In this document: positions 2,818 to 3,655 of the stretch, in pieces
Numbering within the stretch: position 1 is the first letter of the stretch
Layout of the letters: each line of letters begins with the position of its first letter
Source: a virus
Lineage: Duplodnaviria; Caudoviricetes
DNA: 64,000 bases
Virus record (IMG/VR): IMGVR_UViG_3300027656_000007
Coordinates: 8,702 to 72,701 of that record
Direction: 5' to 3' (one strand)
The notes under the pieces: generated by a model
What the model saw: the letters and a program-made list of their open reading frames with translations, nothing else
Told to the model about the DNA's origin: nothing
Databases searched by the model: none
Made by a program: the position numbers and the translations under genes

Positions 2818-3246
2818 ATGACATGGTTCTACAACAATCAACTGATAGAAACTCTACCCGACGATTGTGTGGGCTTTGTCTATTTGATTACAAATAATCT
2901 TTCTGGACGCAAGTACATAGGCAAAAAATTAGCAAAATTTAGTAAAACAACGCAACGCACTGTCAAACTTAAAAACGGCACAAAGAAGAAGAAAAAGATA
3001 CGATCAAAGGTCGACTCAGACTGGAGAGAGTACTATGGGTCAAGCCCAGAATTGACTTCGGACATCGAAAAACTAGGCACCGAAAACTTCACCAGAGAAA
3101 TACTTTACTATTGCAAATCCAAAAGCGAATGCAGTTACATTGAGGCACGGGAACAATTTGCAAGACAAGTATTAGAATCACGAGATTATTACAACGGCCA
3201 TATACAAGTGCGTGTACATGGCTCACACATTATAAACAAACTGTAA
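2818..3246 (+). CDS. Small stand-alone GIY-YIG family endonuclease with a basic insertion
   Basis: GFVYLITN...KYIGKK, YYGSS, IEAREQ, YYNG; Lys-rich arm KLKNGTKKKKKIRSK; only 142 aa. Confidence 0.75.
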   Translation: MTWFYNNQLIETLPDDCVGFVYLITNNLSGRKYIGKKLAKFSKTTQRTVKLKNGTKKKKKIRSKVDSDWREYYGSSPELTSDIEKLGTENFTREILYYCKSKSECSYIEAREQFARQVLESRDYYNGHIQVRVHGSHIINKL

Positions 3247-3655
3247 GGCAGCATTAACGACACTGTGTTGGGTGACATGGCCCAACCCCATTGAGGATAT
3301 GTGAGATACCATATTCAGATTCTTGGGCGTCAAAGGCAATTGCTAACTTAAGGCAACAAATGGTTTGGGCTCCGTTGAAAAAGATACGACCCATGCTTAT
3401 AGGACTTGGATCTACATCGGGTTACTAGGGTTCCGTTGATATGTGAAGCTTGAGTAGGGGGTACCGGTCAACCGCCTCCGCGCAGGAAACTGCAATCTCA
3501 TTATGATAGATGACTGGGCTACTCAGATAATGCTAGGCTCATCGTTCACCGTGCTTACGGTGAATTATGACCAGTTAATCTAGATAATACTTAAAGAAGA
3601 AGACAAAGAAAAAATTGACGAGCAGAGCGAAGTCAATAGAACTTCGCAGAAGTTC
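3247..3655 (+). ncRNA. Candidate large structured ncRNA of unknown family
   Basis: 409-nt gap with no annotated ORF and many stems, a GAAA tetraloop, G-U pairs consistent with the + strand and a 7-bp pseudoknot pairing (see findings). Confidence 0.6.

What the first reader, a model, noticed from the sequence alone, without database searches (positions are those of the whole stretch)
2818..3655. Small GIY-YIG nuclease followed directly by a ~400-nt pseudoknotted RNA-like element (candidate nuclease-ncRNA system)
Seen: the largest gap without an annotated ORF in the window starts at the GIY-YIG stop and is densely paired. Stems include GTTGGG/CCCAAC (3267-3286), GGATATG/CATATTC (about 3295-3316), TGGG..CGT/ACG..CCCA (3366-3393), GGGGG..CGG-TCAA-CCG..CCTCC (3457-3479) and GCAG-GAAA-CTGC (3482-3493). 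A domain closed by TAGAT-GACTGG/CCAGTT-A-ATCTA (3507-3517 with 3571-3582) encloses a perfect TTCACCGT/ACGGTGAA hairpin. TGAGTAG (3451-3457) is exactly complementary to CTACTCA (3519-3525) inside that domain, which is a pseudoknot. The wobble pairs are G-U only on the + strand. The nuclease has no separate DNA-binding domain but carries a very basic arm (KLKNGTKKKKKIRSK). Known: group I intron core motifs, group II domain V, RNase P and tmRNA ends were not recognised. Inference: a large structured ncRNA, possibly forming an RNP with the nuclease or acting as a ribozyme; a structured replication origin is an alternative.
Basis: partly seen in the sequence, partly recalled or inferred. Interest (0 to 1): 0.85.

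Follow-up and report, generated by a model that had tools for sequence, protein, structure and literature searches.

The report
Twin-box structured phage RNA gene
The gene-free gap behind a small nuclease gene of this uncultured giant T4-like freshwater phage encodes a real, multiply knotted non-coding RNA of about 340-410 bases that shows the same fast-changing 7-letter word twice; nothing links it to the nuclease, and what reads the word is still unknown.

Summary
Window 3247-3655 is the largest ORF-free gap. It holds a conserved + strand RNA, supported by covariation rather than folding energy (MFE z -0.36). On 27 homologues my model is 94% paired, with 34 doubly changed pairs against 17 in shuffles.

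Its pseudoknot (TGAGTAG/CTACTCA) and its closing stem (TAGAT/ATCTA) do not. The supported knots are loop 3410-3416 with 3504-3511, and 3435-3439 with 3468-3472.

The odd feature is two 7-nt boxes (3525-3531, 3582-3588, here AGAUAAU). They are identical in 136 of 138 loci although the word changed at least 34 times.

Rfam has no match in the window. Sister loci carry Rfam Polynucleobacter-1 as the 5' domain plus the same uncatalogued 3' domain. A third subtype uses other words such as ACAUGAA.

The GIY-YIG gene looks like a neighbour, not a partner:
- No residue tracks the boxes.
- One relative has a PD-(D/E)XK gene there instead.
- Three cultured phages checked keep the nuclease without an adjacent RNA.

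Four ~340-kb genomes hold no covarying complement of the word. Function is unknown; a shared external reader of both boxes is my best guess (about 40%). This scan had already found the family on other genomes.

The parts
2818..3246 (+). Small GIY-YIG (SegE-type) nuclease gene, 142 aa. It is an upstream neighbour and probably not a functional partner of the RNA.
   Evidence: Pfam PF19835, E 9e-34, full-length domain match. More than 8000 homologues of 142-146 aa. Synteny. No coupling to the boxes.
3247..3655 (+). The whole RNA locus: 5' domain, knotted core, twin boxes, A-rich linker and two 3' hairpins. The exact transcript ends are not known.
   Evidence: 79-98% nucleotide identity in about 30 of 80 related loci. 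Conservation starts at about 3247 (GGCAGC). Largest ORF-free gap of the window.
3259..3393 (+). Subtype-specific 5' domain. Helices: H1 3259-3261 with 3329-3331; H2 3267-3272 with 3281-3286; H3 3287-3290 with 3324-3327; H4 3295-3301 with 3310-3316; H5 3340-3343 with 3353-3356; H6 3366-3369 and 3373-3375 with 3386-3388 and 3390-3393.
   Evidence: Covarying pairs (helices 1-7: 89-100% paired, 20 pairs with double changes). Sister subtypes have Polynucleobacter-1 or another domain at this place.
3404..3422 (+). Hairpin H7. Its loop (3410-3416, AUCUACA) forms pseudoknot PK1.
   Evidence: 3405:3421 is C:G 88 / U:A 12. Helix 8 is 100% paired.
3504..3511 (+). 3' strand of pseudoknot PK1; it pairs with loop 3410-3416.
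   Evidence: 3412:3509 is U:A 48 / C:G 45. 3415:3505 and 3416:3504 also covary. Helix 9 is 97.8% paired. Subtype B keeps it as UUAGCGU with ACGCUAA.
3435..3472 (+). Helix Y (3435-3439 GUUGA with 3468-3472 UCAAC). It crosses helices X and Q, which makes the second knot.
   Evidence: Invariant within the subtype (helix 10). Compensatory between subtypes: GUUGU:ACAAC, GUCGU:ACGAC, GUCAU:AUGAC.
3451..3500 (+). Helix X (3451-3454 with 3497-3500). It encloses helix Q (3457-3461 with 3475-3479) and hairpin H10 (3482-3493, GAAA loop).
   Evidence: 3451:3500 is U:A 54 / A:U 45. 3457:3479 is G:C 78 / A:U 23. 3484:3491 occurs as three pair types. Helices 11-13 are 100% paired.
3521..3531 (+). Twin box 1: flank ACUC followed by the 7-nt word AGAUAAU (3525-3531).
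   Evidence: Identical to box 2 in 136 of 138 loci. 3525=3582 is AA 57 / GG 42, and 3529=3586 is AA 51 / GG 47.
3545..3564 (+). Hairpin H12 between the two boxes.
   Evidence: Invariant 8-bp stem in this subtype, with 3551:3558 G:C 92 / C:G 8. The other subtypes have different complementary hairpins here.
3578..3588 (+). Twin box 2: flank AUCU followed by the 7-nt word AGAUAAU (3582-3588).
   Evidence: The box-to-box distance is 47-74 nt across the family, with no multiple-of-3 rule.
3614..3637 (+). 3' hairpin T1, with a conserved internal GA/GAA loop (GAGC..GCGAA).
   Evidence: 3614:3637, 3616:3635, 3617:3634, 3618:3633 and 3622:3628 covary. The inner sequence is conserved in all three subtypes.
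3641..3653 (+). 3' hairpin T2, the probable terminator shared with the converging minus-strand gene that ends at 3656.
   Evidence: 3641:3653 to 3645:3649 covary; the top MI pair is 3644:3650. The consensus terminator scan did not call it, because it has no long U run.

Best explanation
Window 3247-3655(+) is the single-copy gene of a large, multiply knotted non-coding RNA. The family is uncatalogued and found in uncultured giant (about 340 kb) T4-like freshwater phages. Earlier agents of this scan called it the 'twin-box' RNA.

Shown:
- A subtype-specific 5' domain (3259-3393).
- A core shared with sister subtypes (3404-3511), built from hairpin H7, a loop-to-strand pseudoknot and a second knot (helix Y crossing X and Q).
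- Two copies of one 7-nt word (3525-3531 and 3582-3588) that have no cis partner, on either side of a hairpin.
- Two conserved 3' hairpins.

Inferred: the scaffold holds the two words out for a single sequence-specific reader that lies outside the RNA. Most likely this is a nucleic acid that base-pairs with both, so the RNA would act as a two-site decoy or sponge, or as a two-seed regulator. Because both words must fit the same reader, they change together.

The GIY-YIG gene upstream is a fixed neighbour at the end of the gp46/47 gene block, not part of the device.

Odds: real structured RNA of this family, about 97%. External-reader mechanism, about 40%.
For: Real RNA:
- 79-98% identity in related loci.
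- 101 unique homologues give covarying Watson-Crick pairs in every helix listed.
- On alignment A1, 94.3% of cells are paired, and 34 pairs have double changes against 16.9 +/- 2.2 in shuffles (0 of 500 reach it) and 4-8 in slid controls.
- G-U pairs fix the + strand.
- There is one copy per genome.

Family:
- Sister loci have RF01718 at 75-122 bits followed by the same 3' domain.
- A third subtype has the same box architecture and the same 3' hairpins.

Twin boxes:
- Identical in 136 of 138 loci.
- At least 34 word changes in each box on a tree built without the boxes. In independent pairs box 2 went the same way as box 1 in 9.4 of 10 and never the opposite way (p about 0.004).
- Five of the seven positions vary, always in parallel, while the flanks stay different (ACUC against AUCU).
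- No third covarying column lies inside 3241-3656.

For an external reader with a limited set of words: ACAUGAA recurs on two different scaffolds.

Nuclease as neighbour.
Against: No reader was found.
- The complement of a locus's own word is not enriched within +/-10 kb (47 sites against 51 in controls).
- The window has 7 such sites against 7.8 expected, none at a gene start.
- In four complete or near-complete genomes with three different words, only the boxes themselves change as the word does. This holds for exact 7-mers, for 5- and 6-mers at all aligned positions, and in ORF-free DNA.

An external reader needs three coordinated changes per switch, or a host shift, yet the word changed at least 34 times. 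No transcript data exist, the transcript ends are unknown, and the host is unknown. Only 39-57% of the reference genome could be aligned, so a reader in divergent DNA, or one that pairs with G-U, is not excluded.
Confidence: 0.45

Rival explanations
1. Identity for its own sake. The two words must match each other, not a third party. One version is take-off and landing sites for a templated machine: the nascent complementary strand made on box 1 re-pairs at box 2, skipping or repeating the hairpin module. This is the logic of the T4 gene 60 ribosome hop and of nidovirus TRS template switching. The other version is direct parallel-stranded contact through like-with-like base pairs.
For: - The rule is identity for all four bases: A/A, G/G, C/C and U/U are all seen.
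- Only two coordinated changes are needed per switch, as for ordinary helix covariation. That fits the 34 or more switches.
- No encoded reader was found in four genomes.
- The box spacing of 47-74 nt around a hairpin is in the range of the 50-nt gene 60 gap (the gene 60 figure is from my own knowledge).
Against: - No ORF runs into box 1, and the spacing follows no frame rule.
- 92 of 96 unique RNAs have exactly two copies. No one-box or three-box variant was seen, although the search patterns required two boxes.
- The same word recurs on different scaffolds, which free drift of a self-matching pair does not predict.
- Parallel like-with-like helices are not known in natural RNAs (my own knowledge).
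Confidence: 0.2
2. Processing sites. The two identical words are cleavage or binding sites for one endoribonuclease or dimeric RNA-binding protein, from host or phage. This would release or clamp the module of about 50 nt between them, as the ToxN toxin cuts the repeats of its ToxI RNA antitoxin and as phages mimic that RNA.
For: - The two boxes are identical, have no cis partner, and flank a conserved hairpin module at a fairly constant distance.
- The repeated unit is longer than the word: RUGAC, a spacer of 4-7 nt, AYYY, then the word.
Against: - A protein reader would have to change specificity at least 34 times.
- None of the five neighbouring proteins tested tracks the word.
- The large conserved scaffold is left unexplained.
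Confidence: 0.12
3. One reading: the RNA and the GIY-YIG protein form one system, either an RNP or an RNA-guided or RNA-regulated nuclease.
For: - The nuclease gene lies directly upstream on the same strand in most loci.
- The protein is a bare catalytic domain with a basic stretch.
- A variable A-rich stretch follows the scaffold.
Against: - In several loci the RNA is 1-2.4 kb away, with other genes between.
- L143 has a PD-(D/E)XK nuclease there instead, and in L107 the nearest nuclease is 1.3 kb away across an opposite-strand gene.
- No nuclease residue follows the box word: normalised MI is at most 0.61, against 0.58-0.67 in three of the four control proteins and 0.35 in DUF6614.
- 475 cultured-phage records carry the homologue. 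The three inspected (Melnitz-3, P-HM1, phiN3) have no RNA beside it and no RF01718 anywhere in the genome.
Confidence: 0.08
4. A self-processing ribozyme: a group I-like intron remnant or a new self-cleaving class.
For: - The core is knotted and highly conserved.
- Homing-type nuclease genes are neighbours.
- The 3' hairpin T1 contains UGAYGAG..CGAA, which recalls the hammerhead core.
Against: - The supported strand order is Y X Q Y' Q' H10 X', not the group I order P3 P4 P5 P5' P4' P6 P6' P7 P3' P8 P8' P7' (group I order from my own knowledge).
- There are no flanking exons, and the downstream gene converges.
- No Rfam ribozyme or intron matches at E<=10.
- T1 is a simple hairpin whose UGAY is paired, not a three-way junction.
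Confidence: 0.05

Closest known systems
Polynucleobacter-1 RNA motif (Rfam RF01718; Weinberg et al. 2010, Genome Biol 11:R31, PMC2864571)
   Same: Sister loci in the same genomic slot (behind the same GIY-YIG gene, converging on the same DUF6614 gene) carry RF01718 at 75-122 bits. It is followed by the same core, twin boxes and 3' hairpins as here. The habitat is the same: the paper lists 'Burkholderiales, fresh water/estuary' and gives no function.
   Different: The window's own RNA has no RF01718 match at E<=10; its 5' domain is a different fold. The Rfam model covers only the first 141 nt of the sister RNAs. The shared core and the twin boxes are not in Rfam. RF01718 is absent from three cultured relatives and from G001, a complete genome of the window's subtype.
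Large orphan bacterial and phage ncRNAs (GOLLD, ROOL, HEARO, OLE)
   Same: It is several hundred nucleotides long, richly structured, supported by covariation, phage-associated and of unknown function. This comparison rests on my own knowledge.
   Different: None of these Rfam families matches. None is known to carry two identical co-varying words.
Matched take-off and landing sites (T4 gene 60 bypass) and nidovirus TRS core sequences
   Same: Two short identical words about 50 nt apart flank a hairpin, and identity matters more than the sequence itself. This is an analogy of logic only, from my own knowledge.
   Different: There is no reading frame into box 1. The word is 7 nt, not a codon. 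No skipped isoform has been seen. This is a DNA phage with no RNA replicase.
Free-standing Seg-type GIY-YIG homing endonucleases of T4
   Same: The neighbouring protein matches the SegE GIY-YIG domain over its full length. It sits between conserved genes, next to a conserved RNA gene, as segB sits among the T4 tRNA genes (my own knowledge).
   Different: It is only 142 aa, with no room for a DNA-binding domain. It is 75-98% conserved and syntenic in hundreds of contigs rather than sporadic.

Membership tests
Polynucleobacter-1 RNA (RF01718) | Covariance-model score at or above the 37-bit gathering threshold. | tested here: not met
   The window has no match at E<=10 in 2700-3800 and none at the gathering threshold in the whole window. 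Sister loci score 75-122 bits.
Twin-box phage RNA (informal family of this scan; uncatalogued) | Two identical 7-nt words behind the flanks ACUC and AUCU, 47-74 nt apart, around a hairpin. | tested here: met
   Boxes at 3525-3531 and 3582-3588 are both AGAUAAU, with flanks at 3521-3524 and 3578-3581 and hairpin H12 at 3545-3564.
Twin-box phage RNA (informal family of this scan; uncatalogued) | Shared knotted core: hairpin loop pairing with a downstream strand, helix Y crossing helices X and Q, and the GGUACCGG junction. | tested here: met
   for this subtype. Searches show homology of HMM positions 200-342 and compensatory changes in subtype B.
Twin-box phage RNA (informal family of this scan; uncatalogued) | 3' hairpin with the conserved GAGC..GCGAA interior, then a terminator-like hairpin. 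| tested here: met
   Hairpins at 3614-3637 and 3641-3653 covary. They are conserved in subtypes B and C.
Group I intron | Helix order P3-P4-P5-P6-P7-P3'-P8-P7', with P3 pairing across P7. | tested here: not met
   The candidate P3/P3' (3451-3457 with 3519-3525) and P7/P7' (3507-3511 with 3578-3582) show no covariation. Their variable positions pair elsewhere.
Group I intron | Flanking exons of an interrupted gene, and a match to the intron model. | tested here: not met
   The upstream ORF ends at 3246, and the downstream gene is on the other strand. There is no Rfam intron hit at E<=10.
Hammerhead ribozyme | Three-way junction with an unpaired CUGANGA and GAA core. | tested here: not met
   In T1 the UGAC of UUGACGAG is paired with GUCA (3616-3619 with 3632-3635, covarying). 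There is no Rfam hit.
GIY-YIG nuclease superfamily (the protein) | Match to a GIY-YIG domain model over its full length. | tested here: met
   PF19835 SegE_GIY-YIG, E 9.1e-34, model positions 1-123 of 123.
Seg-type homing endonuclease | A separate C-terminal DNA-binding domain and a sporadic, mobile distribution. | tested here: not met
   The 142-aa protein is almost all catalytic domain. Homologues are 142-146 aa and syntenic. Activity was not testable.
RNA-guided nuclease with scaffold RNA (TnpB/IscB type logic) | Strict co-occurrence of nuclease and RNA, and co-variation between them. | tested here: not met
   The RNA occurs next to a PD-(D/E)XK gene instead. The nuclease occurs without the RNA in cultured phages. 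There is no residue-to-box coupling.

The most novel reading that the evidence does not exclude
The twin boxes obey a covariation rule of identity, not complementarity, and no reader is encoded in the alignable parts of the phage genome. The most novel reading not excluded is that the two words interact through their own copy. Either a templated machine (RNA polymerase, ribosome-like or replicative) takes off at box 1 and lands at box 2, giving two RNA isoforms, or the two strands form a parallel like-with-like contact. Either would be a new kind of RNA element.
Probability: 0.15. Interest if true: 0.9.

Novelty: new variant of a known kind. Interest (0 to 1): 0.66.

Why it matters
Large structured RNAs of unknown function are rare. 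Past examples (RNase P, tmRNA, riboswitches) turned out to be new biochemistry. This family is abundant in uncultured giant T4-like phages of lakes, with hundreds of contigs here.

- Only a third of some members is catalogued, as the orphan Polynucleobacter-1 motif. The member in this window is not catalogued at all.
- Its twin boxes give a clean, testable handle. Two 7-nt words stay identical through dozens of changes, which demands either a shared reader or a mechanism that needs matched words.
Finding none would point to a new RNA principle.
- The work also corrects the tempting 'nuclease plus guide RNA' reading.

Tried and rejected
- Folding energy as evidence: no signal, z -0.36.
- Rfam: nothing in the window's region.
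- tRNA/tmRNA scan: none.
- Sigma-70 promoter and terminator consensus scan: nothing useful. A T4 late-promoter-like TATAAATA is not consistently placed upstream.
Covariation rejected this.
- Decayed C-terminus of the nuclease: rejected, because homologues are all 142-146 aa.
- Small ORFs or stop codons in the boxes: NNA-URA reads as codon plus stop in most words. But there are exceptions (AGAUCAA, ACAGAAA), the spacer lengths vary, and no frame rule holds.
- Cis partner of the boxes: none among the aligned columns.
- Local complement: not enriched.
- Genome-wide covarying complement or third copy in four ~340-kb genomes: none.
- Isolated 11-mer matches at 40295 and 57800 of the window lie inside ORFs and are taken as chance.
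- The freshwater-2 RNA of the same window holds no complement.
- Scan of bacterial genomes with a 16-base core pattern: it returned chance GC-rich hits. Only a 1.7-kb contig binned in a Flavobacteriales MAG is real.
- Cultured phages by BLAST: no RNA.
- Literature: only the 2010 paper names the motif.
- The Bpt/ATE-like reading of the 144-aa neighbour, from a first-stage note: no Pfam or PDB sequence support.
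Full report
**What is in the window.** The window is part of a 72.7-kb IMG/VR virus record. 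Upstream lie a Rad50/gp46-like ORF end, two radical-SAM genes and a 142-aa ORF at 2818-3246. That ORF matches the SegE-type GIY-YIG domain over its whole length (E 9e-34). Downstream, on the other strand, a block converges on the gap: a PNP/MTA-nucleosidase-like gene, then DUF6614, a 144-aa ORF and a 167-aa ORF. The stretch 3247-3655 is the largest part of the window not covered by an ORF of 90 aa or more.

**Is the observation more than chance?** By folding energy it is not. The + strand folds at -108 kcal/mol against -105.7 +/- 6.4 for shuffles (z -0.36), and the minus strand gives z -0.26. By comparison with relatives it clearly is.
- The nuclease has more than 8000 close homologues, all 142-146 aa.
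- In about 30 of the 80 best IMG/VR loci the gap is conserved at 79-98% nucleotide identity.
- A pattern from the invariant core fetched 120 more loci, giving 101 unique sequences.
- The top mutual-information pairs are almost all Watson-Crick partners with two to four pair types.
- On a tool-made alignment of 27 sequences my model (75 pairs, 15 helices, two knots) is 94.3% paired. It has 34 doubly changed pairs, against 16.9 +/- 2.2 in shuffles (0 of 500 reach it) and 4-8 when the partners are slid.
- Numerous G-U pairs fix the + strand.

- Five hold: 3267-3272/3281-3286, 3295-3301/3310-3316, the two-part 3366-3393 hairpin, GGGGG/CCTCC, and GCAG-GAAA-CTGC.
- The TTCACCGT hairpin is invariant in this subtype, and other complementary hairpins replace it in the other subtypes.
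- The proposed pseudoknot TGAGTAG/CTACTCA, the closing stem TAGAT/ATCTA and the small CGG-TCAA-CCG hairpin show no compensatory change and do not beat shuffles.
- Their variable positions pair elsewhere. Position 3451 pairs with 3500 (U:A 54, A:U 45). Position 3509 pairs with 3412 in the loop of hairpin 3404-3422 (U:A 48, C:G 45). UCAAC 3468-3472 pairs with GUUGA 3435-3439, which is compensated as GUUGU:ACAAC, GUCGU:ACGAC and GUCAU:AUGAC in sister loci.
- GACTGG/CCAGTT is paired in only 53% of cells.

**The twin boxes.**
- Two segments, ACUC-RGAURAU-G (3521-3532) and AUCU-RGAURAU-R (3578-3589), vary in parallel rather than in complement: 3525=3582 (A/A 57, G/G 42) and 3529=3586 (A/A 51, G/G 47).
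- The 7-nt word is identical in 136 of 138 loci.
- The flanks stay constantly different, which argues against simple gene conversion.
- All four combinations of the two purine positions exist, each with matched boxes. Recombination among a few haplotypes therefore cannot explain the pattern.
- On a tree built from the scaffold without the boxes, the word changes at least 34 times in each box. In phylogenetically independent pairs the second box always follows the first (position 1: 10 pairs, 9.4 the same way, 0 opposite, p about 0.004; position 5: 6 pairs, p about 0.03).
- The closest pair with different words differs at 12 scaffold positions.
- No third column within 3241-3656 covaries with the boxes.

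**The wider family.** An HMM of the region finds only its 3' half in most other loci that carry the nuclease.
- Subtype B: the 5' part is Rfam Polynucleobacter-1 (RF01718, 75-122 bits). It is followed by the same hairpin-loop knot, the same Y, X and Q helices with fresh compensatory changes, the same twin boxes and the same 3' hairpins.
- Subtype C: it has yet another 5' domain and the same 3' architecture, but with other words: ACAUGAA 44, GCAUAAU 4, ACAGAAA 2, GCAUGAA 2, ACAUAAA 2, and 3 mixed.
- Some scaffolds of the window's own subtype carry ACAUGAA, AGACGAA or UGGAAA(N).
- Five of the seven positions therefore vary, always together, and one word recurs on different scaffolds.
- Box spacing is 47-74 nt with no multiple-of-3 rule.
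- The only paper that names Polynucleobacter-1 lists it as a fresh-water/estuary motif of unknown role.
- The window's RNA has no Rfam match.

**Is the nuclease a partner?** The evidence says it is a neighbour.
- The gene is directly upstream in most loci, but 1-2.4 kb away with other genes between in several.
- In L143 a PD-(D/E)XK gene (PF24608, 1e-24) occupies the slot. In L107 the nearest such gene is 1.3 kb away.
- No GIY-YIG residue follows the box word. Its top normalised MI (0.61) lies within the range of three of the four control proteins (0.58-0.67), and DUF6614 reaches only 0.35.
- Homologues at 38-48% identity occur in 475 cultured-phage records, including cyanophages, Melnitz, phiM12/phiN3 and ACP17.
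- Only three of those records were inspected (Melnitz-3, P-HM1, phiN3). None has the RNA beside the gene, and none has RF01718 anywhere in the genome.

- The complement of a locus's own word is not enriched within +/-10 kb (47 against 51 for control words).
- It is not enriched in the window either (7 sites against 7.8 expected, none at gene starts).
- I then fetched four complete or near-complete genomes of about 340 kb: G001 with AGAUAAU, G002 and G004 with GGAUAAU, and G003 with GGAUGAU. Each has one RNA copy.
- Starting from G001 and G003, 103 direct or complementary occurrences of the genome's own word were checked, and 62 had informative orthologues. Only the boxes themselves changed as the word does.
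- A scan of every aligned position (39-57% of G001) for 5- and 6-mers with the box's substitution pattern again found only the two boxes.
- ORF-free DNA holds no consistent complement.
- A positionally conserved, Watson-Crick reader in the alignable phage genome is therefore unlikely. A host-encoded reader, a reader in divergent DNA, a protein, or a requirement for identity as such all remain open.

**How it most likely works.**
- Shown: a single-copy + strand RNA gene with a knotted scaffold and two boxes that have no cis partner and are always matched.
- Inferred, at about 40%: the scaffold presents both words to one external sequence reader, probably by base-pairing, as a two-site decoy or regulator. 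The recurrence of words on different scaffolds favours this. The failure to find a reader and the many switches count against it.
- Rivals: matched words needed in themselves, as a templated hop or a parallel contact (about 20%); twin processing or protein sites (about 12%); a nuclease-RNA system (about 8%); a ribozyme (about 5%).

**Relation to earlier work of this scan.** After I had found the covariation and the parallel boxes, a look-up showed that other agents had described the same family on other genomes. They called it 'twin-box' or 'extended Polynucleobacter-1' RNA, with function unknown and the nuclease judged a neighbour. My results agree with theirs. I took the name 'twin-box' from those notes. 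I did not see the following items in those notes:
- the third subtype with different words;
- the recurrence of words across scaffolds;
- the residue-coupling test;
- the PD-(D/E)XK replacement;
- the absence of the RNA from cultured relatives;
- the four-genome negative search for a reader.

Noticed in passing
window 16775-16862 (+): Rfam freshwater-2 RNA (RF02980, 68.4 bits, E 2.7e-8). It lies just upstream of a strong AAGGAG ribosome-binding site and an ATG, so it looks like a leader of a phage gene. A first-stage note read it as a tRNA-like leader.
   Followed up: partly
L003:3430-3900, L050:3430-3830, L028:3693-4165 and 62 unique loci: A third scaffold subtype of the same RNA family. Its 5' domain starts GGUUGGCGGGCCAGUUUGUAAUACCGCUGUGG, and its twin boxes read ACAUGAA. 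In some loci an extra 88-89-aa ORF sits between the GIY-YIG gene and the RNA.
   Followed up: partly
L143:2296-2805 (-) and L107:9425-9925 (-): In loci without the GIY-YIG gene, a small 'phage putative PD-(D/E)XK endonuclease' (PF24608, E about 1e-24) lies upstream of the RNA. This suggests that the slot before the RNA gene attracts small nuclease genes.
   Followed up: partly
relatives such as L032, L047, L010 and L003, just after box 2: Many relatives, but not the window, carry an extra element AAUCGCUUCGCUC between box 2 and hairpin T1. It is complementary to the conserved interior of T1 (GAGCGAUAGCGA), so an alternative pairing is possible.
   Followed up: no
window 4536-4967 (-): A first-stage note called this 144-aa ORF Bpt/ATE-like (an aminoacyl-tRNA-protein transferase). 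I found no Pfam family at E<=0.1 and no PDB sequence relative at E<=1. The ORF is conserved next to DUF6614 in most related loci.
   Followed up: partly
window 6527-9433 (+): A 968-aa ORF contains a long Pro/Ala-rich low-complexity tract (PAAPAPAAP...) in its middle. It is probably a tail or baseplate-associated lytic protein.
   Followed up: no
window 40020-40408: This is the second largest stretch without a 90-aa ORF (389 nt). It holds an 85-aa ORF (40095-40352). An 11-base direct match to box 2 plus its 3' flank at 40295 lies inside that ORF and is taken as chance.
   Followed up: partly
G001:C1:341984-342010 (fetched in L343): An AT-rich ORF-free stretch near the end of this complete genome has the box word AGATAAT and its complement as an inverted repeat among GATAAT repeats. 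No counterpart was seen in the other three genomes.
   Followed up: no
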